A stretch of 61,823 nucleotides of DNA, filler included, from Platydemus manokwari (Eukaryota): NCBI GenBank assembly GCA_037951405.1. It is 5 parts of 5 records of this genome, joined end to end, with 100 filler letters (N's around TTAATTAATTAA, not from the genome) between each part and the next. Parts side by side here need not be neighbours in the genome. Positions count along the whole stretch, not along the records: positions 48,110 to 61,823 come from JBBMOY011638070.1; 4 more parts are not named here. One strand, 5' to 3'. Shown here piece by piece: positions 844-58,200 of this stretch; position 1 is the first letter of the stretch; each line of letters starts with the position of its first letter. The notes under the pieces were generated by a model that had not been told where the DNA came from, searched no databases, and saw only the letters and a program-made list of their open reading frames with translations. A program made the position numbers and the translations under genes.

Positions 844-5117
<4,274 letters not shown>

Positions 5118-10052: not shown

Positions 10053-10152
10053 NNNNNNNNNNNNNNNNNNNNNNNNNNNNNNNNNNNNNNNNNNNNTTAA
10101 TTAATTAANNNNNNNNNNNNNNNNNNNNNNNNNNNNNNNNNNNNNNNNNNNN
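10053..10152. other. Artificial contig spacer (N44-TTAATTAATTAA-N44)
   Basis: 100-bp N run with a six-frame stop linker. The contig before it ends in (ATT)n. Confidence 0.97.
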
Positions 10153-19439: not shown

Positions 19440-22147
19440 GACATTATTTTTTTTCTGGTTCTTGAGTTTATTCCTCTCAAGGGACTTCGATAGTAAGTAT
19501 TGTGGACTATACTATCGGTAAGTAATTATCTAAAGGTTCCTTTTGATTTTAAAACTCATCACGGGGCACTAAATATAAATGAATATAACCTAGTTTAATC
19601 GTTAACTGAACAAAGTTGATTAATAATAAGATTTCGAATTATTTCTTGTCTAAATTATAATTAACAAACAACAACGACTGCTGGATTAAATTGTGTCACA
19701 TTTATAATCAGTAACTACTTCTAAAGAAAAACTATTGAAATGTGATATAAATAATATTTTACGAATGATCAAAAATTACAATTAAAAATAAAAGAAAACA
19801 CAAAAGGTTTTTCGGCAATCTCCAATGTCCCACGTAAGTGAATTATCGGAAGTCGAAAGCGGACGAAGAGGATGAGGATCTTGAATTTGATATTTTAGTA
19901 CTTATATTAATATTATATAAAGGATTAAATAGTATCGATTTTAACTTGATTATGAAAGTTCGAATTGTAAAAAATAAAAATACTTATTCTTAATCAAATT
20001 AAATAAATTATTAGTTGTTAAAATAAATAATTTGAGTCACATTGTGAAAATAATGCAGTCAAAAAATCAAACATGTTTGAAAGTAATATAATAAGATTTT
20101 ATTGCATCTTTTAAACTTAGCTACTTTAAATTGAATTGATCATTGACTTAATATTATTCTGGAATCAGTAAGACACTCTTTGTTTAGTGGTTTATTGAGT
20201 TACTATTGTTAAAGCAATGTTGTTTAAATCGGATAGAACTCTTACATTTCATAAAGAGTCATGAAGTTTTGATTTGTTGTTGTTACTTAATTACTAGTTA
20301 TCAATGATTCGAGGACAAAAGCTGTAATTATATTGTAGTCCTTTAAGAGTATAAATAAATATACTAGGACACAATAATTAATAATAGTACCACACAATTA
20401 TAATACCAAAAAGTTTCATATTATTGGTAAAAAAATCCCAAGATAAAAGTAAAGTCACACAAGGAGGAGTTAACACTTTGAAGAAAGTTCATTTTACAGT
20501 CCAAAACTTGTGCTAAATTGGTATTCCCATTTGTTGTGTTGTTAATGTTCCAGATTTGTTGATTTTTCAATTTTTTGATTTTATTTCTCATTGAATTTTT
20601 ATAGTATTTACTGTCTTGTATCAATCGACATTTAGTGGTCCAATTAAAAAGTACACATTTCAATATATTTGAATGCTTACAGACTGTGCTTGGTGCACCT
20701 AGGCGTGCTGTTATGTGATATTGGGGTTTTTTACAGGGTTGCTATACACTACCCATCTTAATATTTTGATTATAATAATTACAAGTTATAAAGGTTGATT
20801 GAACCACTGACAAATTCTTAAGAAAGTCTATCAACGAAACAGTTTTGTAAAATTATCTTTTTATTGCTGATATATCTGAATCCAAGTCCTTTTCCACAAA
20901 TTTCACAAATACTTACTATCTGACAGAGGGTACTTATTGTAATTATATTTTGGTTTAATATCAACCTATCTAAATTATATATATCCTTATATAATTAAAA
21001 TATTAACAATTATAATTATTGATGAATAAAATAAGATTTACAATTAAAGTTTATTTGGATTTTATCTATCCATCTTTCAATTTGTAAATGTATTATAAAT
21101 GTGATAAACATTTCTTGAATTTGATAAATTATAAGCAATATATTTACTTCTGAAAATGAATTATTTCCATTTGTTTTGTTCATAAATATCCTTCAAATTT
21201 ATCCAATCATGATTTGTTTTAGAATTAAAGCGAAGATATTGAATTATCAATGATTCGCATAGTTTATTCATTTCATTAGTAACTCTCAAAATAAATAATA
21301 AGATAATGAGATATGAATGGTTACATAAATATTTATCCATAATGAATTATCGATAATATCTATTTTTATTCGATCTCAGTTGAGGAGGCTAGTGATGTGG
21401 ATTAATCTTAATTAATCCTACGATAAATTCGAGGTTTCTCGGAAAATATGTTGCGTGTATTTAATTTATATAATGGGAGATAAAATATAGAAAATAAAAG
21501 AAATAAATTAAACCATTATTAATGAAAAAAAGAAACACAGATAATTTTTAATAATATTGTATATGTAAATGATAAGTTTTAAAATATATTACAACTATAA
21601 TGTCCTGAAGAAATTTGGCACAGTCCAATGGTTTTCTAATGCGTTATAAAACTCACCGACACGATATCTTAGTAATTTAATTACTAAAAACAAATTTTCG
21701 CTTCTGAGAATTTTGGAAAATAATGAATAAAATTTACTATGTATGAGTATTGAAATAATTAAGCAAATAATAGATGAGAAATAAATAATTGATTTGTGTA
21801 ATCGTGGTTTTCTTTTTTCACTGAAGATAGAATCAATCCAATTGCTTTGTTTCTATAAATACTGGTTGTAAATTTACTGTTGGGCCAATTGAGATTTCAA
21901 TTGTTTAGCTGGCTGTCCATAACTGAGAAATGAAATAATAATGATTTCCTTAATCATTGACAGAAATAAAGTGCTTCTGTCTCTACAAGAAATTATGTAC
22001 TTAATTCCTTTGTGAGACTTTTTATGAATTATTTTATGAACAATATATTTTTGTCGTAGGCACTTTGAATATTTCAGATTTAATTATATTGGATATTTAT
22101 ATTGTATTTTAACTTGGATATTTGATTTCAATAGGTATATATATATA

Positions 22148-23150
22148 TACTCCCTTTGAGATTCACACAACTATTTTTAGGGGCCCACAATAATGTTTTC
22201 GTTTTTCTACGTACATAATATCTTATCAAAATCTAAAAAATACAATTTCAAACATTTATTTGTGAAAATCGCATGTACAAATATACTAAAAGTGTTAGCA
22301 AACCATAACAGAGGATAAAAATAGTCTCCATCAGCTTCAGTGACACTCTGGATGTGATGACTAAAATTTTGAAACTCGCTTGTGATCTTGTAATCCGATG
22401 TTGACTCTAAATATTGGTGAAAAGCGTTGCTTATCTCTCCTGAATTACTGAGGTTTTTTCTATGTCGGTAGCACTCGTAGTTCCTGAAGATAAAGCGATC
22501 CTTGAGGTTTGTGTCGATTGAGTAGGCCGACTGCTTTAATAGAGACACGCGATGTTCTTCAAGCCAAATTCGAAGTAATTGTGCTGCTTGAGGTCTGACA
22601 TTGTCATGCTGAATGAACATTTCCCAAGCAGGTAGTCTTTTTTGAAAGTTTAAAATCATATTCGGCAAGAATTATAGGTGGATCCACCGTCGTGAAGAAT
22701 TTCGAAATACTTGTGATTTTGCATAGTTACTGGGAACTATAATCAAAACTTTGCGATCAAATATTGTCCGCCTAGCAATAGTTGGACGATTACCTGTGCT
22801 ATCCACCCAAAGTTGGTTGCATTCCTGTATGGGTACGTCTCGAAAATTCTTTTTTCATCGATCACGATGATCTTTTTCTTAGTCCTTCTTGACGAATAAA
22901 CATTCAACATTTCTTGAAAGCAAGTGACTCTGATTCTCTTCTTATTATTCGTCAGAATGTGAGGAATCCATCTCCTACAATGTGACTTCTTTCCAAGTTC
23001 TTGTTACAATATGCGAATCTTGAAATGACTGTAAAGCTTAAGTGGTAATCTTCTTAAATCATTTTATGCACAATTATGACATTCTCTTCCGCAGTGCTCG
23101 TTCTTGCTCTTCTTCAACCTTTAACTTTGATCTTTAGATATTTTCTTACT
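22148..23150 (-). mobile_element. Degenerate mariner (D,D34D) transposon
   Basis: Minus-strand RRWIPHIL (WVPHxL), VIDEK, QHDNVRPQ...AYSIDTNLKD (HDNARPH...YSPDLxxxD), with exactly 34 residues between the last two Asp. One TIR-like end (TACTCCCTTTGAG...) sits next to a TA run at 22,148. Confidence 0.85.
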
Positions 23151-25014: not shown

Positions 25015-25114
25015 NNNNNNNNNNNNNNNNNNNNNNNNNNNNNNNNNNNNNNNNNNNNTTAATTAATTAANNNNNNNNNNNNNNNNNNNNNNNNNNNNNN
25101 NNNNNNNNNNNNNN
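25015..25114. other. Artificial contig spacer
   Basis: N44-TTAATTAATTAA-N44. Confidence 0.97.
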
Positions 25115-25996: not shown

Positions 25997-28900
25997 AAAA
26001 TATCAACGAGTTACTTATCTATGCCAATATAAGATAGTAGTCACAGTTATTTCGTGGGCAATGTAGACACAGTCACAGATATTATAATACCAAAAACACA
26101 ATAAAATTGTGATTACATTGCAGTAGATAATTTTGTGTCGAGGATTGAGAATTCGACTGGCAGATAATTTAAACAGCCAAGAAGAATTCTCCAGGATACA
26201 CAAGATAAATTAAAATGATTTATGATTTGAAACGTATATGGCTAGCTAAGCCCATTCTTGAGAGAAAGAGACTTATTGACCACGAAACTTCTGCGAATTG
26301 TGATAACCATTGTCCAACATTTTTGTCCATAAAAGTAGTGCCTAACAATATTGTAATTTGGTGTATTTGGGTGATAAACATTTTATATATCAATAAAGTC
26401 CAGTTGTTAATTTTGTAGAGTACCTGTTGGTTTCATAACATTCATTTAATAATTCAAATTATCATTCACATTGTCATTCATCACCTTTATGGAACAGGTC
26501 TGAGGAGTACCAAATATATAGGGATAAGTAGTACAAAGAAGGCAGATTTAGGCCAAACACCAAACCCAACCCCATAAAATCTTTTTAAAATTTTTTCAAT
26601 TTCAGATTTTTCTAAATTTGCAACGTCATATGGTTTTCTTAGAATAACAATAAATTTTATTTATATTATAAAAATAAATAAAAAATAAACCAATAAAAAA
26701 ATAAATAGTATCTGATTCCACATCTAAAAATAAAATTAAATAAATTTATTAAAAAAATTTAAATTAACATTAATTTCGTTTTAAAAAAATGAAATTCGTT
26801 TCAATAAAATAAAAAAATAAAAATTAAATTTCTTTAAAACGAAAATAGAAATTTAAAACAAATTTCTTAACAATAATATAAAATAAAATGGATCTAAAGT
26901 TAAAAGGGGCCTAAAATGAAATTTTAAATTTGTGGAGTGTATTTCAAAATCCTATATAGTTTATTTAATTATATTCTTCAAAAACATTTTAAATTTTTAT
27001 TTAAGTACTTCAGAAGAATTTGAGTTGTTTGAAATCAGATGTTAAATACACTAGAGCTTAAAAATTGCCTAAAATTTTATTATTTGTAAAAATGTAAAAA
27101 GTTGGTCGAATTGCAATTTATTGAAAATTAGCGAGGACCTCTTTTATAACATTAGAAGCAAATTGAAAGATATTTTCAATTTTTACAATTATTTTATAAA
27201 AATAAGAATGGTATTATTGAACATATCTGTAATTAACAAACTCGATTTATAATTATAAAATTTAAATTTAAAAACTCAAATAATCATATAGAGATGTTTT
27301 GATTAGAATGGGAACTTGATTTTAAAACTGTGTTTTGTCACTATTAGACAACTTAAAAAGTGAGATATCAAGTGAATTATACGAATAAATCAAATATAGT
27401 AGTGATATACAAAATTAAGTTATAAATTTATCTCATGCGCGAAAATTCATCATTACGAAAGTAGATCAAAGGACCCTTTTTCTTAACTTAAGCTTAAAAA
27501 TGAAATAAATTTCCTTTCAATGTAAATAAAATTCAAATTTCGCAAAAACAAAACAAAAATAAGTTTCTTAAAAATAACATAAAAATAATTTTTTATAAAT
27601 AAAATAGTTTTTTTAAATTTTGTAATATGATAGATAATACTAAATAATGAACCAAATTAAATGTACTAAATACGAATAATTATTATATTAAATTTAGTAA
27701 AATAGGATTAAAAACATTGTTCAACACTGCTTATTTCGTCTCCATACGAGCATTAGAAATGAACGAGTTGAAAGAACATCAAACATCAAGGTTTATAAAT
27801 ATCCATGGGTCATCAGAACTCTAGAAATAGGTTAAGTCATAGACATTGTTAGAAACAACAATAATTACAATGAAAGCAAATGGATCTCAAAAGGAACAAG
27901 TAGGCAAAAGATATAAATATAGAGGATAAAGATAGACAAAGAAAATTAGTTATTAAAAATACAGAATAAATACATATGTATACAGTGTTTCCTACAGCGA
28001 ATCTCCAACCAAAATTATTCTAGGATAAATAAAAATTCATTTCGTTGTATAGCAATAAATTCTATTGACTCTAAAAATTCGAATTCTTTTGATTATCGAT
28101 TGATTGATTTGTCTATTCAATTTAAATAAATACTATGACATCAAATAACTGAAGAGTACACGATTATTGGATATGATTTTTTATAAAAAAGGATACTGCA
28201 GATCAATTAATCGATTGTCAATTGCTTCTTTAATTAAGAGATCTGGATCAAGTACAAGTGTTGATTCAAAAAATCAACTATAATCTCGTGATTTTCTAAT
28301 AAAATTTGCATGTGAAGATCTTTACAAAATTGTGCTTATATAGAGCATATATAGAGAATGCGATTCAGAGAATATCCAGAATAGATAGAGAATTCAATTT
28401 TTATGTTGGAAGCTTATATTAAGCGAGAATATTTCACTGTGAAATACAAAGTAATGCCCAGTCAATAAATAAGTAAAATAATGAATTCAATATTTGATAT
28501 GAAATCTGGGATGATTGATTTTCATAACTGAGTTGTTCAAATTTTGAAATCATATCTATCTAAAATAAAATGATCCTGATCATATTAATGACAAATTTAT
28601 TCAGCGATTTTAGTTTTACAAGTTGATCCTTTTCGACCGAGAATACAACTATCACTCACTCACGAGCAATTATATATTCCCAAATATAATCCATATTAAT
28701 AATTGAGAAGACATAAAAATATTTTTTTAATTTTATGTGGAAACACATCAGCAGTTCAGTTAAAATAAAATACAAAATATCATGTACTAATTTGTATTAA
28801 ATTACAATTTAAGTGTAAATGCTCTCCATCAAATTTATTTTAGGTAACAATTTTTGATTGGCTCAAAATTGGTTACTGGAGATTGTCGACACCAATAAGA

Positions 28901-36357: not shown

Positions 36358-36457
36358 NNNNNNNNNNNNNNNNNNNNNNNNNNNNNNNNNNNNNNNNNNN
36401 NTTAATTAATTAANNNNNNNNNNNNNNNNNNNNNNNNNNNNNNNNNNNNNNNNNNNN
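36358..36457. other. Artificial contig spacer
   Basis: N44-TTAATTAATTAA-N44. Confidence 0.97.
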
Positions 36458-40543: not shown

Positions 40544-43251
40544 TGTTGGGTTTTAGAAAATCAGAGATGTGACATTCATTTTGTGCATGAAATATTTCTA
40601 TTGTGGTTATTATGTAAATATTCTATATGTCGATGTATATTCATAGTAATTTTTATCTTTAATAATATTCTAATTTTATTTCTTATTTTTCTTTCTGGAT
40701 AAAAATCCGTCCTGGTTAATTAATAGTTAATATAATAAAGAAATAAAATTGAAATAACTTTTAAAAGTTATTATTAAAGAACCAATTTTCAAAATATAAT
40801 AAAAACCCGAAAATAAACATGTATTTTTAAAACCCATTATCTAAAATATACCCTTATTTTAAAATACCCAAATATTCAAACCACTCCTATAAAATAATAG
40901 AATAAAAAATTACCTTTATTAAAATTGACTGCAACTAAACTGAACATCAATAGAATTTAAGTCCCTTTTGTTAAGAAATAATAAACATCATTTTCCACCC
41001 GTATATCGAAATAACAGCCCGTAATAAAAATAAAAATCCTTTGAAATTAATAAAGGAACCCGCATTTCAACAGAAATTCAACCTAAGTAAAATTTGTATA
41101 AATAGGCCTTTGAAATCAATAGCAGACCCATCCCGCCTGTTACAAAAGACCACTTATTGCTGAAGAACGTACGAAGTCAATAATTCGAACTCATTGAGGA
41201 GGAAAGCCAAAGCCAATTTCCCTTGAATCAATCATATGCCCAGTTCATCTGGAAGATCAGTTTTATATTGATAGTCGTTCTGATTGATAGGATATAGAGG
41301 ATCGAGGACTCGACGGTAAGATACGATTCTTGTAAAATCATCATCAATTTATATTTGAATCGCATATTCTCCCTATTCATCGGGTTAATCCCAATCATCT
41401 TGAATAATCGGTTCTACTCCTCTTGGGAGCATTGTCAACCAGAACTTTTAGCCAGAATTGTAAATCTCTGTCCATTTCAGTATATACAAGTATTGTTCAT
41501 ATTTAACCATAAATCGTTGTGTAAAAGTAGTAATTCACAGCCATAATTGTCGTATAAAAGTTGTAACTCATATTGTAATTTTTATAGCAATAAAAGCGTA
41601 TAATCATAAACGAGTTGGTTATGAATTTGCAAGTGCCCTAAGCATCACATAATTGTTTATAAAGGATCATTACATTGTCATTTCATCATCTTTTTAGAAG
41701 GGTGTAAAGAGGCGAAAAACAATAATAATAAATTGAGGCTGATTACTAATAAAGCAATATCATTGAGCCGTTCATCCCGTTTTCATACGAGGATTGATAC
41801 GATCAAGACGAAAGAAGATCATTCAATAATAGGTTATAAGAATTCCGTAAGACTGATTAGACTCTGATAATGATTTTAGGGGCTTATCGTTTTACTTTAT
41901 TTGAATTTTTGTTTGCTTTGGCAATATCTGAGTCTAATCAGCTCTCTGAGTCCGTCTGGCCCACAAGTAATCTCTAAACCTAATATTTTTGATATTTTTT
42001 CGCCTCAATCACTCCAATCCGTGTATGAAGATATTGCTATAATGATTTATATTATTATTGACCGTTAAATACTTTAACTATATCTTGCCAAAAAAGGTGA
42101 TGAGATGGTTTTTAATAATGATAATATTTATAAAAAATGATTTTTGGAACTTAATGGCAATATCAAAAACCAATTTCCTTGATATTATTCATTAATATAT
42201 ATTACTACAATTATACAACGATAATAATAAGCTTATAAATTACTACTTGTACACAATTAATTAAAAATTGGATTTTAAAAATACTTCTATGCACTTGAAC
42301 GGACGGATTTGTACAATTCTGGCAAAAGCTACCGTTAACAATGCTCCCAAGAGGAGTAGAACCGTTTATACAAGGACTTTGGGTTTAACCCTATAAATAG
42401 GGAAACATGCGTTTGATGTTATAAATTGTTGATGATTTTATAGGAATTATCTTACTCAATCTTTGGACTTCTTCTCGAACAAATTGAATATCAATTATCA
42501 AAATTTATCTTCCAGACGAATCTTGGGATATTCCGTGTGCGCAATTGAATCTTCTTTCTTGGATTTTAATACTAGTTGATGTATTACCACACTTTTAAAT
42601 AAATAACTATGCGTCGATTCTGCCAATGTTTTGCTGTCCCACTGTTGTTATTGTGCTATCGTGTCGTTTATTAATTGCAGTCACTGTCTTATCAAGACAG
42701 CGATGACTCATTCTGCGAATTTTTATTTATTATCGAGCATATGTGTTTAAAGCACTGGAATATTTTTAGGCAGTGAAAAATTTTCTGCCATTATTTTTAC
42801 CATGACAGAGTTAAAATCTCTATGATTATTTCAATGCATGGCTTATTAAACTTAATGCGTGATATTTATTTAATACCTAGCTATTTAATTTATTGTAGGT
42901 GTATATTCTATCTGCAACGCGCGATAATGGGTGTTAGATATTTGCTTTGCGATAACACATTACGGGTTATTTATTATTATTATTTTATAGGTATTTTTTA
43001 TTATAACGGATATTTTTTAAGGGTTTTTAATTGTAATAATTTGTGGGATATTTTAAAACGGTAATACAATATCATTTTGTGTATAAAATATATTATATTT
43101 AATTTATATCAACCGCAGAGCTTTTAAAGAATTATAATCCAAAACAATTTAAATATTATTTTCAAGCAATATACTTTTATACACTGATACAGGGACGATT
43201 TTAATACACTAAATCATGCAAATAACGAAGTCAATTTTCAAAACCCCAACA
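40544..43251. mobile_element. ~2.7-kb imperfect palindrome with TG...CA termini; candidate giant palindromic LTR
   Basis: Ends TGTTGGGTTTT / AAAACCCCAACA. Exact 26-bp inverted match GGTTCTACTCCTCTTGGGAGCATTGT (~41,410) vs ACAATGCTCCCAAGAGGAGTAGAACC (~42,338). Inner CTGATTAGACTCTGAT vs ATCTGAGTCTAATCAG. All pairs centre near 41,890. Confidence 0.8.
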
Positions 43252-43954: not shown

Positions 43955-44078
43955 TCTGCAAATTTCGTAGATAATATCACAGATGTAAATTCCGTAGATC
44001 GTTTCGCAGATGTAATTTATATAAATGATTTCGAAGATGTAATTTCCGTAGATAAATTCGCAGATGTAATTTTTCGCA
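43955..44078. repeat. 27-bp minisatellite (~4.5 copies)
   Basis: GATGTAAATTCCGTAGATCGTTTCGCA / GATGTAATTTATATAAATGATTTCGAA / GATGTAATTTCCGTAGATAAATTCGCA. In frame these give the 9-aa repeats DVNSVDRFA / DVIYINDFE / DVISVDKFA. Confidence 0.8.
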
Positions 44079-44492: not shown

Positions 44493-45727
44493 ATGGTTAG
44501 AATATATTTTTACTAGAAAGGATGACCAAATTTTTTATTTTTAGGCTCGTAGTGCTGAAAAGAAAATGTAGGATTTTATTTAGAAAAATTAGCTTTTTAT
44601 TAAATTGAATTAAAAGGACTGCCTTGGCTCGTTGGAGAGCGGTCTACGAAGATAAAATATCATTCAGAGAACGACCGAAACTTGCTTCAGAATGCAACAG
44701 TCTTAGAGATGCAAATATGTTCAGAAGACAAATCCTAAATGAAATCACGAGGAAAATAACACAAATTCAAAATTGTGAGCTCATTTTTATTTTAAACATA
44801 AGTTATTGAATTTTATCAGCTTCTCTGGGTGAATTTAAATTAAGAGATCTTAACGATGAAATTAATCGTCTCTTTCGTGAAAAGGGTCATTGGGAAGATA
44901 GAATATTAGAGTTGGGTGGAACTGATCATAAAGTTTAATATAAGTATTTTTATGTTTGTTATTTATTGTCATATAGAAAAATTCTTTCATAATGATGGAA
45001 AAAGAAGGCAAATCCTTACCTGGAAATTGGGGCTATCGATATTTTGGTGCAGCAAGGGACTTACCAGGTGTACGAGAATTGTTTCAAAATGAACGTTAGT
45101 ATTGGTAAAATTTTAAATTGTGATATAATAGTTTTCCATAGCTGATGGAATTACTAAACGACTTCGAGTGGATCTCACGGATAGTTATTATGGTTATCAA
45201 TGTGAAGCAGATGGCATTATCTTACCAATAGAAACAATATCAGAAAAAGAGTTTCGTCAGAAATTATTTAACGAATGGGATAGGAAAAAGCTCAAACGAA
45301 AAGCAGCAACTGAAGTTCTTGAAGACCAGCATGAAGAACGTGAACAAAATATCTACGAAACTGGTGACAATCCCGCAGATGTCGAACGTGATACGATATA
45401 CGATGATTTGAAAAAGAGCATGATCAACGATCACGGACCAGAATCCTTAACGGATCTCGAGTCACGAGTGAAGAGATTCACTAATATTTGCGTTCCAAGT
45501 CAGTCAGAAGTGAGATATTTCGTAAAGATATTTCACGACCTACTTTTATTTCGTTCATTCAGATTGAGAAAACCGTTGTGAATTTGAAGAAAGATAAAAT
45601 CCTCAAAAATTATATGTCGGATGATTTGATTGCCGAAATGGTGCATTCCGGCACATTATTAGGCATGGAAATCGCTTCAGAGGATCCGGTCGAAGAACGC
45701 GAAGAAACCGAATCAGAAATTAATTAG
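44493..45727 (+). CDS. ISY1: Pre-mRNA splicing factor ISY1. Exons 44493-44495, 44545-44567, 44617-44774, 44820-44932, 44977-45094, 45142-45509, 45563-45727.
   Basis: M|ARSAEKKM|TALARWR...RPKLASEC...RRQILNEITRKITQIQN|SLGEFKLRDLNDEINRLFREKGHWEDRILELGG...GYRYFGAARDLPGVRELF...YYGY...VPSQSE|IEK. All introns are GT-AG, 44-53 nt. Confidence 0.95.
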
Positions 45728-47214
45728 CATTTTAATAATAATATCGATTTGTTTTGTCGTGTTTTTGAGGCATGATGTGTATTATTTTGTATTCATTTTA
45801 TATATATTTGTTTTCCCGCCAATTTACGTTTAAATAATCACCTTTATCGATATAATGTCGTTTCATATAATGTGACATTTTTATTCTTTATTGAATCAAA
45901 TTAAATGAATCGGAAATCACAGGAGTTCGTTGATCATATATTTCAGGTAGTTCGTACAACCTGCGCAGAGACTCATTTTTAAAACAAACCAATTAGCATT
46001 AGCCAAATAACACTGAAAATTCTTTCTCACACCATTAAGTAGTGTTTTTATTTGACCTTCGAAAAATATTGTTCATTATAACAAAAACTTAATTAATTAT
46101 TTTGGACAAAATTCTTTAATTGTTTTGATCTAATATTTACCACGGATAATTGGAACTACTCGATCTTCATTGAAAATGTTAATTATTCATTTTTATAATG
46201 TTAATTTTTTTAAAATTATATAAAAGTTTTTTTCAAAAGTTAATTCATTTCTGTATAACTATAATCAGATTCATTTCTATACAGTAATATTTTAGTATTC
46301 TAATAATCTTGACTAATCTTTGTATTGCTGAATGTATCAAAAACCACTCGAAATTACTGACAAAAATCCTGGAATTAGACTAATATGAAGTACACATCAA
46401 CAAATAATAGCCACTATCACAATAGCCAATCAGAGTCTTTAAATTTGATTGGAGTTCAGTTTTAAGAATGAAAACATTCAAACAAAACCTTTACGCAAGG
46501 CTTCAAAAATCTTAAAACAAATAAATTCAATTCACAAGACATTGATCCATACAAACAAAATTAAAACTAAATAACGAGTGAGATCTGGACAGAAATTGCC
46601 AATATTTGAATAGTTCCCAACTTGGCCTATTGTTTTTATCTTTCAGTTAGTGACTCTCTTCTGTTTGTTATACTTCTTTGATTGGTGAACTTTATTCTTC
46701 AAGCTTTCGTTGTACGTTATTTATTTCCAATAGTTTTTGTTTATTTATGTTTGTTGAGATATGTTATTTCCCTATCGTAAAATAGAGCTAAATTTAAAAT
46801 AAGATTTGAGATATTAAAAGTTGCTAAAAGAATTACTAAATCACAAATTTAATCAATGAAAGAGAATTCGAAATCCAACATGAACTACCAATTTAAACAA
46901 TTTATTTCTTTTATGTGTAATATAAAAAATATGTTCATAATTTCAGTTAAGAAAAAGGGGTCCTTTGACCTTATTTCGTTATGAGGTATTTTGAGATAAA
47001 ATATAAATCTCCAAAACATTTTTAAGTTTAGACAAAAATAATACCAAATTAATAAAAATTATCTTTCCTTTGTGCTTCATTATTTTAAATTAATACAATC
47101 ATCTCGATATTCTGAATTGTAATTATTAATTTTATGGTTGTCGTATTTAAAAAACAATTATGATATTATAAATAAAAAATATTTATTTTTAAAATTTACT
47201 CATGGTATTCCTTT

Positions 47215-48009: not shown

Positions 48010-48109
48010 NNNNNNNNNNNNNNNNNNNNNNNNNNNNNNNNNNNNNNNNNNNNTTAATTAATTAANNNNNNNNNNNNNNNNNNNNNNNNNNNNNNNNNNN
48101 NNNNNNNNN
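48010..48109. other. Artificial contig spacer
   Basis: N44-TTAATTAATTAA-N44. Confidence 0.97.
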
Positions 48110-51100
48110 ATAGACTATATAGTTTCTTGTAATACACTCAACAAATTTGAAATTTTATTTTACAACCCCTGGCTTAAGTTAAGAAAGAGTACTTTGAACT
48201 ACTTTCGTTATAATGAATTTCCTAGCGTGAGATAATTTTATTACTTAATTTAATGAATAACTGCCATCTTTGGTTTATTCGTATAATTCAGTTAATATCT
48301 CGTTTTTTAGGATTTCTAATATTGACGAAACATTGTTTAAAAAACATGTTCCCATTGTAATCACTTCTATATGATTATTTGAGTTTTTAAATTTAAATTT
48401 TTATTTTACAATCCATCAATCAACTTCTGTATTTGTTATTTGATGGAAGGGTTATGGCTATTATTAAGAAAATCTGTGATGTAAATAGGCTTCGGTCTTT
48501 CAACAATGTCTTCATTTATTCTTCAAGGAAAGTAGGATGTTTTGGAAATAACTGCCCCTCTTCACGGCTAGTATGTACAGAATATTGTGGTGGCCTTTTG
48601 CTTTCTCAATTATAGTGATAAGATTTCCGTCAGTTCATAATAATTGAGCTCAAAGATCGAAGGCTAAAATTGAAATTTATTGTTGATAACCTCAGACCGA
48701 CAATCTGATTATTAAAAGCCTTGTGCCTATGATTGTATAAGAAGACCAAATCATACATTTGAGAAAAGAAGTATAATGCAAATTTTAAAGATTTATAAAT
48801 AATTACATTAATAAAAAGATATAAATATATTAAAATCGTTATAACTTTATTAAGTGCACTGAAAAAATATACTTTTCTTGATTGAATCTTTTAAAATGCT
48901 TCCATTTCGTAAATAATAAAATGAAAGCGCGGAAAAAACAGTTATAGGATTTTCATAGGATTTTCAAAATATTAAAAATACAAAATCAAATCATCATGTC
49001 ATTATTCACAGCTTGATGAGCGGGTTATTAATATCGACTAATTAAATAAGAAATAATAATATTATGAATTAAAACGAGACTTTAAAAATCTCAAATTAAA
49101 TTATGGCAAAGACATTTTGATATCATTTTAATATTCTATAAATAATCTGAATTTGATGTTCATTTGTAATTCAAATTTCATGTTTGTTAGAAAATGTTCC
49201 ATTTCAAGCTATATGTAAATATTTATTGATAAACATTTACAATCGAAGTAGCCCTATATTAAAGTAAGGAATCTACAATGTTTTTCCTTTCCATCGTTTC
49301 ATGAACCACATGTCGTTAGGTTAAACATATTCTCGATTGATTATTTCATGCTATTCTATATTTAGTCTCTGTTGTATCTTCTTTCCATATTTTTAATGTT
49401 CCCTTCGTTGCTATTTTCTTTCCCGTTTGTAACTTCCATTGTAGATCACTCGCAATCACATTCGACTTTAGACAGGTCAGAGCTTTTAATCTAATCCCAG
49501 TTACTTTAGAACGATATAGTTGTTCTGTGCTTGCCAAATTCCGAAATATGAAATCCATTTAGTCTGGTTTTTAGTAAGCAATATTCATTACATTATGTAA
49601 CTCACGATATTTTGTATCCAGGAAGATTTGTTTATATATATAATTAAATTTATTCTGGTTTAAACTGGCTTCATTACCTCATTATTTAGAGATGAATTGC
49701 TGTGAAATTGACTAAAACAATGGGAGTTTGTTTAATTTGGGATTAAATTTATAATAAAATCTTATGAAATAGTTAATAAAGCAATTTTTTATTATCGGCA
49801 TCATACGTTGAACCTTAAGTAATTATTATTGATTAAGTAACCAGTAATATTTTTTATTGTTCTACAAGTTTGTCTTACTTAGACAGTTGTCCTTTAATCT
49901 AATATAATATAATATTACCAGACTGCAGTTATTTTAAATTTGCACAAATAATTTCAAAGAATAATTAAAGGCCCTCTTTTCCTCAATTGGTATATTGATT
50001 TGCACTATACGTTCACAGGTGCCCAGGTCGGATTGTTGAGAATCCGATTGGTTTAGCAACAGGGCCGTTTGAAGTCGTTTTTCGTTTGATTCCCGGGGAT
50101 ACTTTTCACACTTTCGAGCACTGATCACTCCGGAATCGTTGATGATTATGGTCTACCATTGGAATCAACAGTGAGATGTGCTCACTTTCATTGTTGAAAA
50201 ATCATAATATGATCTGTCCGGGAGAATAATTAAAATATTTACAGAATCATGAGTAGCTAAGCTTTGCCAAATCCGAAGACAAGTCGAGCCATTCCAGTGA
50301 GAGAAAGCAAAAATCGGTAATATAAAGTTAATGAAGTGACGAATAAATAAAATGATTAGGTGATTAGTGATATGACAGTGTGACCCGTGTTAATTAGAGA
50401 TGATAGTGATAATGTGGATGACGGTGAGAATAATGGATGAGCCCAAGATGATTATTATGGGCTAAATAGTTGTGTTGTTTATGATTTGGTAAGGAGGAGT
50501 AAAGATGCAGTTGTTATCACTTAATGGACCCCTAATTTTGAAATTATCTTTTTATCTCTGCAAATAAATTTAATTCGCGTCTCCGATAAAATATTTCTTT
50601 TCCTTTCAACTTGTAACATTTATTGTTTTACCTTTTAATTTATAAAGACTTTAGGGTGGTATTTTAATATTTTTACACTAATCTCCTTTTTATCACTGTT
50701 ATACTTTACTGCTTTTATAATAATAACATTGGCCTATGTATGTTATTATTCTGTTTATTTCAGCCCAAACCGTGAAGCCAATGTCAATAATATATGAATT
50801 CATTCAAAACGATAGATAATTGTGACCAGATTTCAAATCACTATCCTCATTTCGAATAACCTTAACGCTGTTGCTTAACGCGATTGCTTAATCAATTATT
50901 CACTTATATTTTAATAATCTGTTAAAGTTCCAGTTGTTATTTTTAATAAAATGAATTCGTTACTGTTGACTTGACAGTGATTAATTCAATGATTTATTTT
51001 ATATTCTCGCAAATATTTGTGGAAGATAATTAATTTGTTTTGCTTGAGAAAGACGTGAACCAAATATTTTAAAGAAAAATTCATATTTTTATAAATTCAT

Positions 51101-51574
51101 ATTTATTATTTTTGTGCTTTTAAGGAAAATAAAAATTATTGATTAAATTATTCGAAATATGTTTTACAACAAAAATATGATGACGTGATAAATCACAATT
51201 TCATTATAGCTTAATTGTTTGGCTCATAAATGAGGAAATAGCAATTAGAAATAAAAAAAAACTTTATCCGCACTGGTAATAAACTGTTTCCCTCATTAAG
51301 TGCAATCAAATAAATGATAAGTGACCACTTTTCTTTATATCACTTATTCCATTTATAATATATATACTTAATATTAAAAAGACTTTTATTGCAGGTGAAA
51401 CAGAGTCAAATAATATTTTTTATTATTGATTATATAATGATAATAAATTAATTATTTATAACAATATTTAGATATTTTTATAAATATTTTTATAAAATAG
51501 ATTTCATTTACGAAAACATTTTACTCATTTATAAATTGGAGAACATCGAATTTTAAAAATAATGAATTTTAAAG

Positions 51575-52370
51575 CTGATGACATATTTTACTAGAATTTT
51601 ATTGTACCAAGCTATTGGGACTCCTATTTATCCAAGACACGATTTATGTGTTTTGGACAATACACCACCTAATCGAACATCAAAATTAGTAATCTGTGAT
51701 TCTCAATTCGCATCCAATTGCTCTCATTCATTACTATTATCGATGCGTCAGAATCCCATAACATCTCAATATGTGTACCGTTACAGTCAATTTAACTCCA
51801 CTGTCTATCATCTGCTTTTTTATACATCTCTGAGTATTTGCTCTCCATCTTGACGTTTTTCCTCTTTACTTCTATTATATCTCTAGCTGATATGTTCCCT
51901 ATTGATTCAACACCACTGATAAGATACCAATATAGTTTGACGCCAGTTTTTTGCCTCCATCGAGAGTGAGCTAACATAATTACTTCCTTCACTTTTGGTT
52001 TGAATATCGGCTTCATCTTCATCGTCATAGATTCATAGTATTTTCCTTGAACTAATATAAATAGACTTTATGGCTAATTGACATTCTCTGAACAAATCTC
52101 CTTCTTTTCCAAATATTAAAAATTTATTCCGCAGTGGACATATAAACGTCCGATGTCTAAGTTAACCACAGCAAAAGCTAGCTTCTGGTTTTAAACAATC
52201 AAAAAATGGTGTGGTTTTCATCTACAATTTTTATAAAACTTATACGCAGTAGCCTTCATTAATCTTGTTGGTCTCGTATGGTTTGGAGATTCGATAAAAT
52301 TAACTGGTTCACGATATTCCTTTACACCAGAATCTCTTTTCTACATAATTGGAATTGAATAAAGTCTGCT
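51575..52370 (-). pseudogene. Ty3/Gypsy reverse transcriptase/RNase H relic (opposite strand to the adjacent large element)
   Basis: Minus-strand remnants RRFVQRMSISHK (RMPFG-like), MKPIFKPKVKEVIM, VKLYWYLISG (VKYLG..IS) and RNase H LRIT...DVRLGGVLSK...PIAWYNKIL (GIGAVLSQ...PIAYxSKxL). Confidence 0.6.
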
Positions 52371-52769
52371 TTTGAAAGGTTTTTCTTGCAAATTTTAAGA
52401 ATTTTGAAGAATTTTAATAGAGTTAAATTTTGTATAAAATTATATAAATTTTTTTTAATAATTGGAATTCAAAGATTTGAAATAATTATTGAAATTTATA
52501 GAAGAGGATAACATTTTATCATGATTAATAATTGTGAGATATTTGATATTAAATGAATTTCAATTTGATTAGAAAAGATTTTAATGTACATTTTATTCAA
52601 ATTTTATTCAAATTTTAATCAGATTTAATTTAATTTAATAAAAAATTAAATCAAGGTAAAATTGAAAATATTTGTTTAAATATTTAGATTTAAAATAGAA
52701 TTGATTGTGTCTTGACTTTTTTTGTTTTGATTTTAGTTTGGGGTTTCTAAATACTATGAGCGGCTAACA

Positions 52770-54060
52770 ATAGTAACGTTGACATCTACGACATCCAAAA
52801 AATCTGAATGAATATTATTAGAAATTAATGCCATAAATAAGAACAATTAATGTCAATACAGACATACATGAAATAGAAAGAGAACAAAAAGAAGACAGTG
52901 AAATAAGAAAAATAAGATGGTTAATAGAGATAGATAAAAATAGTGAGAGTGAAAGGATATAAGTTGAACGACGAAAACATATTGACTTATTGTAAAGAGA
53001 ATTCAATAGTCGTACCCAAAAATCTAAGAGAACTACTATTGCACTCATATCGTGATGGGACTTAGAGGGTTTGTTTGTCGAAATGAAAAACATACGGTAA
53101 ATTAAAATGTAAATACCATTGGAATAATATGAAAAAGGATGTAGATGAATATTGTAAACAGTGTTCGTTTTGTGCAACTAGGAAAAATACAGGAAGAGTA
53201 AGAAAAGTACCATTAAAACCACTACCACTAGTAAGAAGACCCATGGAGATATGTGCAATGGGTGTAATGGGACCATTGCCAGTAACAGAGAAAGGAAATA
53301 AATAAATAATAGTATTTTGGGACTATTTCAACAAAGTTTCATTAGCATTTTCCAACCAAAAATCATAAGAGCGAGACAATAGTCAAACTATAAATAGAAA
53401 AAATAATATTTTAATATGGAGCACCCAGTAAATTATTAACCGATAAGGGAAAAGATTTATAAATTAACGACATAAAAGAAGTCACTGGGTTATTAAAAAT
53501 AAAGAAAATTAATACATTTCCATATAGACCACAAACAGATTGATTAGTACACAACGATATAATCAAACAGTCCAAAATATGCTGTCAAATTTCATTAATA
53601 AAAAGCAAATTGATTAGGATGAGTACATTAAAACATGTACTTTCTCATATAACACAGCGTTAAATGAAACAATTGGATATTCACCGTTTTATCAAATGCA
53701 TATGAGAGATACATATTTGCCTATAGACATAGAATACTTGACAAAAAACATCAAAATTAATGAATGAAAAAGAATATGTAACAATAATGAAAGAAAAACT
53801 AGGAGAAACATATCAACATGCTCAATTAAATTTAAAATCCAAACAAGAGCAATATAAGGATTATCATGAAAAGAAAGCATATGATTATGGATTTATTATA
53901 GGATATACGTATCAGAAGTAAAAAAAACGGAATATCACAGAAATTGCAAAGACCGTCGTACAAAGGACCCTGTGAGATAGTTAGGAAGACAGTCACTAAT
54001 TTGTTCATAAAAAAAGAAAAAGAATGAAGAACTGTCAGAAATACAGGTTAAAAGGTGTAA
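52770..54060 (+). pseudogene. Ty3/Gypsy pol 3' part: end of RNase H, HHCC zinc finger, rve integrase core, GPY/F module
   Basis: NSNVD..LRHP (N.ADALSR), EREQKEDSEI, IVVPKNLRELLLHSY, YHWNNMKKDVDEYCKQCSFCATRK, PLKPLP...RPMEICAMGVMGPLPVTEKGNK, YGAPSKLLTDKG, PYRPQTD, FSYNTALNETIGYSPFY, YKGPCEIV. Multiple stops and frameshifts. Confidence 0.92.
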
Positions 54061-54130
54061 AAAACAAGAACAGACATTAGTAAGAAAGGAAATTTTAAGA
54101 AAGCAACCGACTCAAACTCAAAACGATGTC

Positions 54131-55350
54131 ATGAACATTAACATAATGAAGAAAATTCAAAAGAGACAAGAAAGTAAATTGAAATCAATCGGAAGAATAG
54201 GAAAAACAATAATAGTTTCACTATTAATCAGCCTGTTGATTAGACCAGTTCAGAGTTTCAATGGAACTGATAAAGTTAATAATTCTGAATTGACTAAAGT
54301 AAAAATATCCAAGAGTTTTAAGATCATATTACCGACCATATTGGAAAATATTACCACACCAAAAACCATTTGGAATACAACACCAGTTATAGTAAAAGAG
54401 ACCATAAAATCGGCATGTGAAATAAGAAAGGAATTCATCTTATCATACTTCATAACAATAGAGAATAATAGAGCCATGATACATTGTCAGCAACAATGTA
54501 ATTGGAAAAAATTAAGGAATTTGAAGGAAGTACAAGTTAAGTATAAAAAGAATAAGATAGAATTTTTAATAAAATGTCATCAAGGATTTGGTGAAAAATG
54601 TAAAAAGGAGAAGTTAGAAGAAATAACAATAATATGGAAATGGAAAGAGTTGATAGAGCAAAAAAGGAGATAATAGGAATTCCATGGAAACCATATACCG
54701 ATAAAATAATATATTATTTAAAAGCATTATTGGAAATTGTAGCAAAAATAGGAATAAATGAAGAAAGAGAAATTAAGTAAAATAATACCATACCATTCAA
54801 AACGAATATATTACCAGTAGTAGGAACCAATAATATATCATTTACACAATCGTATGCTAATCCATACATATAAAAATGTAATTATGAGAAAAACTTTAAA
54901 TCTTGTACGACCAGTAAGGATAAAATTGTAATTAATATTCCAGAGTGGAAGCCGGCAAAAATAATTGATGATGAAAGTGAAATAGAAAACAAGAAATGAA
55001 AAGAAATAATATAGTAGAATGGAAAGCAAAGAATGAAAAAAGTGAACATCTTAGAATACGATAAAAGGCGATTCAGTGGAAAAATTATTTAGAATAAACA
55101 AAGATAAAACAGACAAAATGTTTAAAGAGAGAATTAATATGATAGAAATCATTAAAGGATGTGAACAACAAATTTAGCATTAATAACCAGTCTAGACATA
55201 ACACTCAAATCATTAACAATAGTTTTGATAACAATGTATGCCAGAAGAAAAATAAATGCTGCCACTACACCAATTATATTTATAAGAATACCAAAAATCG
55301 CAACTTTGGTGATAAAAATGATAGTTTTGCCCTGTGTTTAGATGTACGAT
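54131..55350 (+). pseudogene. env-like secreted/membrane glycoprotein segment downstream of the integrase
   Basis: Basic stretch plus hydrophobic signal IIVSLLISLLIRPVQS|F. N-glycosylation sequons NGT, NNS, NIT, NTT and several Cys. A downstream frame holds the TM-like TNLALITSLDITLKSLTIVLITMYARRK. Confidence 0.55.
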
Positions 55351-55905
55351 AACTCAATGATGATTTTTACCTTTTCATAACATAGGAAAAGAGGAATTTA
55401 AAGATTATAATAGATACGGAAAAATAATGATATTAAACAATAAGCAAAATGCATGGGAAAACAAAACTATTCACAGTACGACTTTAAAAAAATTAAAAGT
55501 TAAAGGTGAGAAAAAATGGTAAACATCAGACGATAGAGTACACAAAAGTAGTAATGGAGCAGTAAACATGTATAATTTAAATTGTGGAATCATTTACCAA
55601 ATAGAGAAAAGATGACATCATAACAATTATAGCACAAACCCCTAAATTACCCCGGAAAATATTCATTGAAAAAAGTAAAAATATTAAAAATGTTGATGAT
55701 AAAGGTTTTATTATGGTTGATAAAATTGGGAAATCATTACAAATATTTGAAGATGAGCACAAATCAAACTTCAACGTTAATACTCACAAATCGCCTAGTA
55801 TCATTGACTACAGATTTCTTTTAAGAATTTTATCTTAGACAAAACAAAAACGGTTATTTGACTCTTTTCCAAGTTTATTTAGTCTCAAAAAATTAAGAGG
55901 ATAAA

Positions 55906-56746
55906 ATGAAATTTACTATCATAAATCGCGAATTGAATTACTTCAAAGTATCTGGTAAGGATCTTAATATCAAGAATTTCGTTTCTATATTCTATAGAAA
56001 TGGTGATTTTTGGGTTAAGATTGACTTAAAGAAAGATAACTCTAAAAATCCAACATACAGCGATGCCAGCGATAACAAAAATATTAAAATGCGTCGGAAT
56101 TATCAAACTTTTGATAAGAAAACTAATGATCAAGCTCGGTTGATTAATGGAAAATTTATTAAATTGTACTTAAATAAAACACAGCTTGTTGATGTCCCGA
56201 AAACTATTATAAAGTTTCTTTGGAATTTAACGTCCGAATTATCTGAGACTGTCTTCATCGATAATCCGGAAATCAAATGTGATAAAATCAACGAAATAAT
56301 CGATAAATTGACTACTGAGAATAAAATACCTGGATTTCTGGTAAATTCAAAAATAAAATTCCAAGAAGGTAAGTTCGCATATTTTGATTTTCTGTCGAAT
56401 AAGATGAAAACTATTGATGATCGCGTTCTAAATAAGCCTATATCTAGAAATCAAACTGCCGATCTCTTTCATAGATTCCCAAGTGTAGGTGAAATAATCT
56501 TTTTGGAATCCAAGCATGACGTTGATAGATCTGTAAGTAATCTGATTGTGCAGCTTAGAGTTTGAAAAAATTCCAGAAGATATTTTTTTAAATGGTTTAT
56601 TCTATTCCAATTCATCATTAAATAGATCTCAATATAAAATAGTTTCGACATCTTGCCCAGATTTGCAATTTGATTTAGGAGAATTTAGTCTTGCTGACAT
56701 GAGTAAACATCAATACTCGAATCACTTGATGAAGAACATAAATTAG
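55906..56746 (+). pseudogene. Uncharacterised polyprotein segment of the large Gypsy element
   Basis: 219-aa and 66-aa overlapping ORFs on the same strand, separated by a frameshift, no introns, no recognised motif. Confidence 0.5.
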
Positions 56747-57062
56747 TTTATGTTATATTTCATATGAGTCACATGACTCTAAAAAGGAAAATTAGTAAGA
56801 AAAAATGACCAAGGGCCGAAGATTTTGCTAAAAACTTCCTCATAAATTGTGCTCTAATAACTTCACACATACCGATTCATGACTTAAATAACGCAATAGT
56901 TAATGATTTTGAGTATTGGGATGCGTTTATCAGTAATCATCTAATAGAGGACTCTTATTAGAAAACAGTGAACATTGATATTAACAACATTAAAATGCTC
57001 CGAAACATCAAAAAGACTAGACTTCATTAATGAAACCATCTCATTTGATATGATTTATAAAG

Positions 57063-57320
57063 TCAACTCTTTTTATCAACATACAAGGTAACTCTGATGA
57101 TATCTCGTTACAACTTGAAAATGTTCACCAATTACGGTTTAAAATTAATACCATTCAACCCAAATGAAGCAGAAATTTGAAAGACGAGACCAAATTTGTA
57201 ACGAAAGTAATTCGAGATAAAAACGAATCACTAATGAAAGATAAACGAAAGTTTTGGTGGTCAAAATCAGGTAAAATTATTTGCAATCGCGAATTGGAAT
57301 TGGAATGTGTAATGATAATT
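57063..57320 (+). pseudogene. Candidate Tpt1/KptA-like ADP-ribosyltransferase-fold remnant
   Basis: One frame gives FINIQGNSDDISLQLE (Tpt1 IRAxQGHS...LxL) and SLMKDKRKFWWSKSGKIIC (Tpt1 xLxDGxKFxxSxNGVIL). Motif spacing is shorter than in canonical Tpt1, with one stop. Confidence 0.4.
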
Positions 57321-57467
57321 AATAATAAACCAGATCCTGTAAGCGATTTGAAACCTAATGGATGTATGAACGATGGTTTAAATACGGAAAATGAAACTAC
57401 AAAAAGTAGTGAAAAATTGTTTGAAAATCTCACTTATACCGAAACTGAAAAGGATTCAAAAGTTACT

Positions 57468-57625
57468 TGCAAATTGTGTAAAAATGAAAAACCAGTAAAG
57501 AGTCTAAGCCATAATCAATACAGTATAAGCTTCTGTGATGATTGCCTTGACTGCTTTTGCACTATTAATAGTACAATCAGAAAAAGTGAGAGAAAATAAT
57601 TGTTCGTTTGCCAATATCCAATAGA
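57468..57625 (+). pseudogene. Degenerate RING-like zinc finger
   Basis: CKLC...H...FCDDC...; the final C-x-V-C-Q-Y-P-I is recovered by a single-base frameshift at ~57,604. Confidence 0.5.
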
Positions 57626-57699
57626 ACTCGACGAACTACGAAAAGGGCATTGACGTACAGCACGGGAGAACCTCAGGATTGACAATTTGTGTGTACACC

Positions 57700-58200
57700 A
57701 GTCGACAAATAAATCTTACTGGCATGGATAGCACACTCGATGAAATTGCTGAGAGACCGGAGAGGTTCGAACGTAGAGCATGGTTTGCTGATGTCGATAT
57801 CAGATTGTATCTTCATAGAAACATTGTGAATGAACATCATTTTGGTGTTAATCTTGTACTCGTCAGTGCACTGGCTGAGGGTAGGTTTGAAATTGCTACA
57901 GTTCTCCCAGGCTGGTTTTTAGAATCAATCACACTAATGTGCCCTTTGAATATTTTAAATAAACATTAAGTTCTTTTTTGTATAATAGAGAATCTCTGGA
58001 GTCTTTTATAATGGATCTACTTAAAACCCCTTATGAACAGGAAATAGCTTTAGAACTGCCAGAAAATTTGAATAGAAAATTAAACGTTATCTTGCAGGCA
58101 AAAGTTAGTATTATTGACAATCCGCATGCCAATATTTCTAGACAAAAAATGGTTATTTGTATGCGCTTATAGTTTATTTGTAGGTTATATAAGCAAGCGA
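57700..58200 (+). pseudogene. Ulp1/SENP-family (C48) cysteine protease remnant
   Basis: WFADVDIRLYL (W.ND..I..Y), LMCPLNILNKH*VLFLY (P.N...HW.L, Trp to stop), FIMDLL (YDSL), RQK..(NGY).C followed by FIC (Q.N..DCG.F). His-Asp-Cys order and spacing are correct. Confidence 0.72.

What the first reader, a model, noticed from the sequence alone, without database searches (positions are those of the whole stretch)
57700..58200. Ulp1/SENP (deSUMOylase/deNEDDylase-like) protease captured by an LTR retrotransposon
Seen: W-F-A-D-x-x-I-x-x-Y, P-L-N-x-x-x-x-H-(W to stop)-V-L, M-D-L-L and Q-K-(N-G-Y)-x-C in canonical C48 order, split by the ORF caller into two unannotated ORFs. Established: Ulp1 domains occur in DNA transposons (MULE/Kaonashi, Ginger1, Zisupton), and SUMOylation is used in retroelement silencing. 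Inference: this is an anti-silencing enzyme or a polyprotein-processing protease in a Gypsy element.
Basis: partly seen in the sequence, partly recalled or inferred. Interest (0 to 1): 0.75.

Follow-up and report, generated by a model that had tools for sequence, protein, structure and literature searches.

The report
Dead transposon-borne Ulp1-type protease gene
This is a broken copy of a SUMO-protease-like gene carried by a multi-copy jumping element, a pairing already known from many transposon groups, and it probably belongs to its own small element rather than to the retrotransposon remnant beside it.

Summary
The protease is real, the LTR capture is not shown. The motifs lie at 57781-58269 (+), split over three frames by one stop and several frameshifts. 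The pieces miss Pfam C48 directly, but their nearest relative P0004 is an intact C48 protease (E 1.8e-7), and the Asp/Gln piece, which was not in the query, matches it independently. The gene ends a roughly 790-codon decayed reading frame in a 2.7-kb multi-copy block (55691 to about 58430). A Gypsy-type integrase remnant lies 3.7 kb upstream on the same strand, but no RT, RNase H or LTR pair is in the window. The block differs from the integrase block in codon bias (p 9e-13) and repeat depth, and starts with TGT that pairs 15/21 with an ACA end seen in sibling copies. Best reading (0.55): a separate TG..CA-ended DNA element, perhaps Ginger-like, nested in a Gypsy remnant; its transposase was not identified. 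Cargo or ORF-bearing LTR of the Gypsy element: 0.25. Substrate unknown; this copy is dead. Transposon-borne Ulp1 is well known, and this scan noted it before on other DNA, once in a fungal LTR element (unchecked).

The parts
57712..57966 (+). Ulp1/C48 domain, piece 1: W-F-A-D helix, P-L-N strand, catalytic His (57964-57966)
   Evidence: tblastn E 5.8e-11 with P0002, 2.5e-9 with P0004; partly circular, this was the query
57967..57969 (+). in-frame stop right after the catalytic His; a frameshift follows within about 10 nt
   Evidence: sibling contigs do not share these lesions (tables 3 and 4)
57978..58148 (+). Ulp1/C48 domain, piece 2 (other frame): catalytic Asp (58014-58016), oxyanion Gln (58143-58145)
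   Evidence: 32.0 bits; best of 300 shuffles 9.8
58149..58170 (+). nucleophile motif, broken by frameshifts in this copy
   Evidence: uninterrupted in 5 sibling contigs (table 7) and in P0004
58171..58269 (+). piece 3: helix after the nucleophile, to the end of the reading frame
   Evidence: no score of its own; 5 sibling contigs stop at the same place (table 7)
55691..58433 (+). block B: multi-copy unit that carries the protease gene; right end approximate and eroded in this copy
55691..55711 (+). left end of block B, TGTNR start, 15 of 21 complementary to the ACA-ending right end of sibling copies
   Evidence: 3 of 123,604 sites score as well at 21 nt; 46 of 123,598 at 24 nt
55906..56565 (+). 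N-terminal 219 codons of the block B reading frame, unidentified
   Evidence: weak Atlas rows, 0.85, giant-virus hypothetical proteins; pLDDT 36
56546..57091 (+). decayed middle of the block B frame; by eye like an integrase-type DDE core (recalled Ginger2 pattern), not confirmed
   Evidence: no significant match
57168..57740 (+). Cys-rich (zinc-finger-like) stretch in front of the protease
   Evidence: 9 Cys in 143 aa; Znf_SCAND3 E 0.016, below cut-off
52760..54027 (+). block A, part 1: decayed Gypsy-type integrase (H2C2 finger, core, GPY/F-like motif); nothing of pol upstream
   Evidence: Integrase_H2C2 E 1.7e-10
54011..55690 (+). block A, part 2: A-rich decayed reading frame with a hydrophobic segment, 4 sequons and 6 Cys in its first 220 codons; env-like by layout only
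   Evidence: no hit
58434..59443 (+). block C: A-rich decayed coding DNA at background depth, unidentified

Best explanation
57712-58269 is the dead C-terminal Ulp1/C48 (clan CE, His-Asp-Cys) protease domain of the single long protein of a 2.7-kb multi-copy DNA element (block B) with TGT..ACA ends, probably Ginger-like, that landed in the 3' part of an older, decayed Gypsy-type retrotransposon (block A). In intact relatives the domain would be tethered to the element's protein and cut ubiquitin-like modifiers (SUMO most likely, NEDD8 or ubiquitin not excluded) after their Gly-Gly end, on the transposase itself or on chromatin and repair factors at the element, easing transposition or silencing. 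Shown: family, gene layout, multi-copy state, distinct block. Inferred: independence of the block, its class, the substrate and the role.
For: Family: (P0004 best PDB hit yeast Ulp1, E 4e-5). Block: composition change point at 55705, 0 of 300 shuffles at each of 3 block sizes, both blocks homogeneous inside; third-position A:T 242:110 in A, 200:259 in B (p 9e-13), 164:181 in host exons (B vs host p 0.28); depth 179-1188 in the three bins of A before the junction, 1551-6247 in the six bins of B, a single-copy contig ending at 55699, a sibling joint linking 55790 to 58067; TGTNR at 55691, the only one in 55600-55950, pairing 15/21 with the siblings' ACA end. Layout end - 215 nt - one frame ending in Ulp1 - about 160 nt - end. 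Ginger ends follow TGTNR, five Ginger2 families are 2.75-2.9 kb or near, and C-terminal Ulp1 is known on Ginger1 and Mutator transposases (PMC2836005).
Against: No transposase was identified in block B: Pfam, NCBIfam, PDB and a two-sequence Gypsy integrase profile gave nothing (the X-joined reading scored -1.6 bits, shuffles up to 6.7). The inverted repeat is short (21 nt, 71%; Ginger TIRs are 40-270 nt), its length was chosen after seeing it, it rests on a 5-contig loose end, and this copy's own right end shows none (306 of 500 shuffles score as well). No target-site duplication found. A 77-codon frame (55605-55838) runs across the left junction. All frames of A, B and C face the same way. 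Block C is at background depth (35-44), not at A's, and the right-hand change point (58595) is about 170 nt off the proposed end. ORFs of one element can differ in composition (PMC9099904, passages). Depth comes from one run, probably the source sample, and is no copy number.
Confidence: 0.55

Rival explanations
1. One reading: block B travels with the Gypsy-type element, either as a captured cargo gene 3' of an env-like frame or as a 2.7-kb 3' LTR whose U3 holds the whole protease gene.
For: Same strand and unbroken chain of frames from integrase to protease; TGT..ACA ends with a short imperfect inverted repeat also describe an LTR; higher depth in B than in A and background depth right after B fit a 3' LTR with solo copies; giant Gypsy elements with many cargo domains, among them a SUMO-like one, exist (Burro; PMC6431247, passages).
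Against: No second LTR, RT or RNase H in the window; the purine tract before 55691 is ordinary (203 of 2908 windows of block A are as purine-rich); B lacks the A-bias of the integrase block and looks like host exons; the gene would fill about 86% of the LTR.
Confidence: 0.25
2. Block B is a piece of an endogenous DNA virus or Polinton-like element, the protease being its maturation enzyme or deubiquitinase.
For: Atlas look-alikes of the N-terminal frame are giant-virus hypothetical proteins (0.85, below the tool's 0.9 lead level); Polintons carry a Ulp1-like protease (PMC4405056, passages).
Against: No polymerase, ATPase or capsid match within 48110-61823 on the frames scanned; no relative in IMG/VR; block A's integrase has an H2C2 finger, which Polinton integrases lack (PMC2836005).
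Confidence: 0.08
3. A plus B are one Ginger1 DNA transposon (integrase with C-terminal Ulp1).
For: Gypsy-type integrase with H2C2 and GPY/F-like motif, no RT or RNase H, Ulp1 downstream, 5.7 kb in all, within the 2.6-7 kb range.
Against: About 1,230 codons, with a hydrophobic secreted-type frame, separate integrase and protease; no 40-270 nt TIR around A+B; sharp composition and depth step at 55700.
Confidence: 0.05
4. The motifs are a chance alignment or a decayed cellular SENP pseudogene.
For: No direct Pfam or PDB hit; fold model unusable.
Against: Independent match of piece 2; multi-copy, intron-free setting.
Confidence: 0.04

Closest known systems
Ginger1 DNA transposons with C-terminal Ulp1 (pfam02902) (Bao, Kapitonov, Jurka 2010, PMC2836005; parts 1-3 of 5 and passages read)
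   Same: TGTNR start, Ulp1 at the C-terminus of the element's one protein, multi-copy.
   Different: No Gypsy-type integrase detected in the same frame; inverted repeat 21 nt and imperfect; no CCGG/CCGT duplication.
Ginger2/Tdd DNA transposons (same paper)
   Same: TGTNR start, about 2.7 kb, AT-rich surroundings; by eye a Ginger2-like motif order in the middle of the frame (recalled, not from a call).
   Different: No Ulp1 domain is listed for Ginger2 in that paper; TIRs there are 45-297 nt; DDE core not demonstrated here.
Other mobile elements with Ulp1/C48: Mutator (PMC2836005), CACTA (PMC8978399), Crypton (PMC3212892), NeSL and Utopia-1_TSP non-LTR retrotransposons (PMC4640811); passages read
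   Same: Accessory C48 domain on a mobile element.
   Different: No match to their transposases, recombinase or RT; in NeSL/Utopia the protease is N-terminal to RT, here the frame stops after it.
Cellular Ulp1/SENP and bacterial clan CE enzymes (PDB 1EUV, SENP1, OtDUB)
   Same: His-Asp-Cys order and Gln; P0004 hits Ulp1 at E 4e-5, OtDUB at 0.0099, SENP1 at 0.15.
   Different: Too distant to read off the substrate.
Giant Gypsy elements with cargo domains (Burro/GYPSM1; PMC6431247, passages)
   Same: Integrase followed by much extra coding DNA; env-like and SUMO-pathway domains are known cargo.
   Different: No Ulp1 named there (0 occurrences); no RT, RNase H, gag or LTR pair here.

Membership tests
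Peptidase C48 / Ulp1 | Pfam PF02902 match of this copy's own single-frame pieces | tested here: not met
Peptidase C48 / Ulp1 | significant homology to an intact protein that passes PF02902 | tested here: met
Peptidase C48 / Ulp1 | His, Asp, Gln in order and spacing | tested here: met
Peptidase C48 / Ulp1 | catalytic Cys in the nucleophile motif | tested here: inconclusive
   broken in this copy; uninterrupted in 5 sibling contigs and P0004
Peptidase C48 / Ulp1 | clan CE fold | tested here: inconclusive
   P0004 model pLDDT 31; 0 Foldseek matches at E<=0.001, clan CE chains among rows at E 0.2-0.8
Peptidase C48 / Ulp1 | cleaves SUMO, NEDD8 or ubiquitin | not testable with these tools
   needs an assay
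Gypsy LTR retrotransposon (block A) | Gypsy-type integrase with H2C2 finger | tested here: met
Gypsy LTR retrotransposon (block A) | RT and RNase H upstream of the integrase | tested here: not met
   tblastn of 2 whole pol proteins over the window, E<=1; Pfam; the copy may be 5'-truncated
Gypsy LTR retrotransposon (block A) | pair of LTRs | tested here: not met
Gypsy LTR retrotransposon (block A) | protease block linked to block A in other copies | not testable with these tools
   no genome held; no listed contig or joint spans the junction (tables cut)
Ginger DNA transposon (block B) | TGTNR terminus | tested here: met
Ginger DNA transposon (block B) | TIR of 40 nt or more | tested here: not met
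   15 of 21 only, against siblings; none in this copy
Ginger DNA transposon (block B) | 4-5 nt target-site duplication | tested here: inconclusive
   right end eroded
Ginger DNA transposon (block B) | integrase-like DDE transposase with H2C2 finger | tested here: inconclusive
   no match to Pfam or a Gypsy profile; no Ginger2 sequence could be had to test with
NeSL/Utopia non-LTR retrotransposon | Ulp1 N-terminal to RT in one frame | tested here: not met
   frame stops at 58269, also in 5 sibling contigs; no RT
Polinton | pPolB, ATPase, capsid genes beside integrase and protease | tested here: not met

The most novel reading that the evidence does not exclude
An env-carrying Gypsy element whose 2.7-kb LTR is almost wholly filled by a gene ending in a Ulp1-type protease, so that every solo LTR seeds a deSUMOylase-like gene, in the way MMTV carries sag in U3 (that parallel is recalled). 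I found no paper on Ulp1 in an LTR retrotransposon in searches (judged from listings).
Probability: 0.2. Interest if true: 0.65.

Novelty: new member of a known kind. Interest (0 to 1): 0.27.

Why it matters
As it most likely stands it adds one more, dead, example to the known habit of mobile elements carrying SUMO-pathway proteases. It would matter more if block B proved to be a Ginger2-type element (Ulp1 is listed only for Ginger1 in the defining paper) or an ORF-bearing LTR: the latter would extend Ulp1 cargo to LTR retrotransposons and give a test case for element-encoded counter-silencing by deSUMOylation.

Tried and rejected
Direct Pfam and PDB searches of the protease pieces: nothing for C48 (best PDB row Ndt80, E 0.053, taken as chance). 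Word-index searches for longer proteins: 0 of 191 candidates with piece 1, 0 of 299 with P0004, so no polyprotein context for this protease family was found. Locus scans: no confirmed relative in metagenome contigs or viral contigs. Folds of the 219-aa frame (pLDDT 36; not searched) and of P0004 (pLDDT 31): unusable. Atlas: weak rows only, none; not run on the protease itself. P0001 and P0003 dropped as repeat artefacts. NeSL-like layout rejected (stop after the domain). A hAT/CGGBP1-like reading of 56809-57090 and a Ginger2-like reading of 56546-57091 were both by eye from recall; neither was confirmed. Polypurine tract at 55668-55690: not unusual. The siblings' right-end motif does not occur in the window within 3 mismatches. 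No RNA holder listed. No whole genome held. Earlier findings by place or sequence: none. The integrase alignments in the supplement of PMC2836005 could not be read; they bear on the Ginger2 question.

Full report
Setting. The window is an AT-rich (24-33% GC), gapped scaffold of an intron-containing eukaryote: ABC transporter, Rab4-like and Isy1 exons. It is probably an animal; that was not established. No whole genome is held.

The observation. No single-frame piece hits Pfam C48 or a solved Ulp1, and a word-index search found nothing among 191 candidates. An exhaustive search of 1.84 billion proteins gave 4 hits at E<=0.001; 2 were repeat proteins matching 20-26 residues and were dropped, 2 cover the piece: P0002 (35%) and P0004 (36%). 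P0004 is an intact C48 protease (E 1.8e-7, 31.7 bits against a cut-off of 20.7); P0002 scores 18.4 bits, under the cut-off. P0004's best solved relative is yeast Ulp1 (E 4e-5), then OtDUB (0.0099) and SENP1 (0.15). The second piece was not in the query, yet it is the second-best tblastn hit of both proteins in the window (E 6.7e-7 and 0.005; best elsewhere 0.26 and 0.34) and scores 32.0 bits on their profile, best of 300 shuffles 9.8; the third piece alone scores -1.5; the X-joined reading scores 95.0, partly circular. A fold test failed for lack of depth (pLDDT 31). In the one run that holds the stretch, probably the source sample, sibling contigs do not share the stop (12 contigs listed at that place, all differing) or the following frameshift (3 contigs), 5 carry an uninterrupted nucleophile motif, and 5 stop where this frame stops. 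So the family had a complete triad at the C-terminus of its protein, and this copy is dead.

The neighbourhood. Upstream on the same strand is a decayed integrase: Integrase_H2C2 E 1.7e-10 at 53012-53188; its 2 hits among 281 candidates are whole Gypsy-type pol proteins at 27-34%. Those two proteins find only the integrase in the window (53087-53746); no RT, RNase H or protease at E<=1. There is no LTR pair or long inverted repeat. A weak aspartic-protease-like stretch (E 0.088) lies at 51672-51791 on the other strand, facing away. After the integrase comes an A-rich frame with a hydrophobic segment, 4 sequons and 6 Cys, env-like in layout but without any hit.

Three blocks. Base composition changes at 55705 (0 of 300 shuffles at each of three block sizes) and near 58595 (0 of 300), while 52760-55700 and 55710-58400 are each homogeneous. 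Third-position A:T is 242:110 in block A, 200:259 in block B and 79:55 in block C, against 164:181 in three host exons; A versus B p 9e-13, B versus host p 0.28 (I chose the frames by eye). Contig depth is 294, 1188 and 179 in the bins of A before the junction, 1551-6247 in the six bins of B and 35-44 in C, which is background; a single-copy contig ends at 55699; a sibling joint links 55790 to 58067 (depth is no copy number, and the tables are cut). The only TGTNR in 55600-55950 is at 55691. A loose end shared by 5 sibling contigs at 58409 ends in ACA, and its reverse complement matches 55691 onward at 15 of 21; 3 of 123,604 sites in the window do as well, or 46 of 123,598 at 24 nt (the length was chosen after seeing the match). 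This copy's own right end shows no such repeat (306 of 500 shuffles) and no target-site duplication was found. Block B thus looks like a 2.7-kb unit: end, 215 nt, one frame of about 790 codons (unidentified N-terminus, decayed middle, Cys-rich stretch, Ulp1), about 160 nt, end.

What B is. TGT..ACA ends fit Ginger DNA transposons and LTRs alike (PMC2836005). For an independent DNA element: the layout, host-like codon bias, the depth step, the size, and C-terminal Ulp1 as on Ginger1 and Mutator transposases. By eye the middle resembles a Ginger2-type DDE core; that is recall, and tests with Pfam, NCBIfam, PDB and a two-sequence Gypsy integrase profile were negative (the profile scores block A's integrase at 99.2 bits, B's at -1.6). 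Znf_SCAND3 at E 0.016 is under its cut-off. For cargo or a 3' LTR of A: collinear frames, a 77-codon frame crossing the junction, background depth right after B, and the note that ORFs of one element can differ in composition (PMC9099904); against it, an ordinary purine tract (203 of 2908 windows) and a gene filling 86% of the supposed LTR. I put these at 0.55 and 0.25.

How it would work. From family knowledge, C48 enzymes cut after the Gly-Gly end of SUMO or related modifiers. Tethered to the element's protein, the domain would strip such marks from that protein or from chromatin and repair factors nearby; Bao et al. propose such a role. This is inference; the substrate cannot be read from the sequence. 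Polyprotein processing is unlikely for a domain that ends its own frame.

Literature seen. PMC2836005: parts 1-3 of 5 and passages, supplement alignments unreadable. Passages only: PMC4640811 (Ulp1 in NeSL and Utopia), PMC6431247, PMC4405056, PMC10175614, PMC8978399 (C48 in CACTA, 92), PMC3212892 (C48 in Cryptons), PMC5751038, PMC3248453 (0 occurrences of C48, Ulp1, SUMO; 89), PMC9099904, PMC13524379, PMC5753468. PMC6338049: part 1 of 4 (81). Searches listed no paper on Ulp1 in an LTR retrotransposon, judged from listings; most subscription papers are not in the library. An unchecked note of this scan reports one in a fungus, and others report Ulp1 on P-like and pogo-like transposases.

Verdict. 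Observation confirmed; interpretation partly supported. A dead transposon-borne Ulp1-type gene, new member of a known kind; interest 0.27.

Noticed in passing
window 51385-52750: Separate very high-depth repeat (10,570-79,004) that cuts off the integrase's 5' side; on the minus strand a 91-codon frame (51792-52067, no hit) runs into a weak aspartic-protease-like stretch (51672-51791, E 0.088).
   Followed up: partly
window 11801-12250 (+): By eye a fragment of a Polinton-type protein-primed DNA polymerase (recalled pattern); no Pfam hit for it.
   Followed up: partly
window 22100-23000 (-): By eye a decayed Tc1/mariner transposase (recalled pattern); no Pfam hit.
   Followed up: partly
window 41370-42403: About 1-kb element with 130-nt imperfect terminal inverted repeats (I8 and I14), MITE-like; three + frames gave no Pfam hit.
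   Followed up: partly
window 27257-27479 and 48184-48401: Two inverted copies of a 220-nt repeat, 81-93% alike; high depth at the second.
   Followed up: no
window 1474-5117, 17717-18208, 44600-45730: Host genes: ABC transporter (ABCC-like), Rab4-like GTPase (best PDB Rab-4B, E 4e-47) and Isy1 splicing factor.
   Followed up: partly
window 10053-10152, 25015-25114, 36358-36457, 48010-48109: Four 100-nt scaffold gaps, each with an artificial all-frame stop linker in the middle.
   Followed up: no
window 43957-44064: Three 27-nt tandem units inside a 104-codon frame.
   Followed up: no
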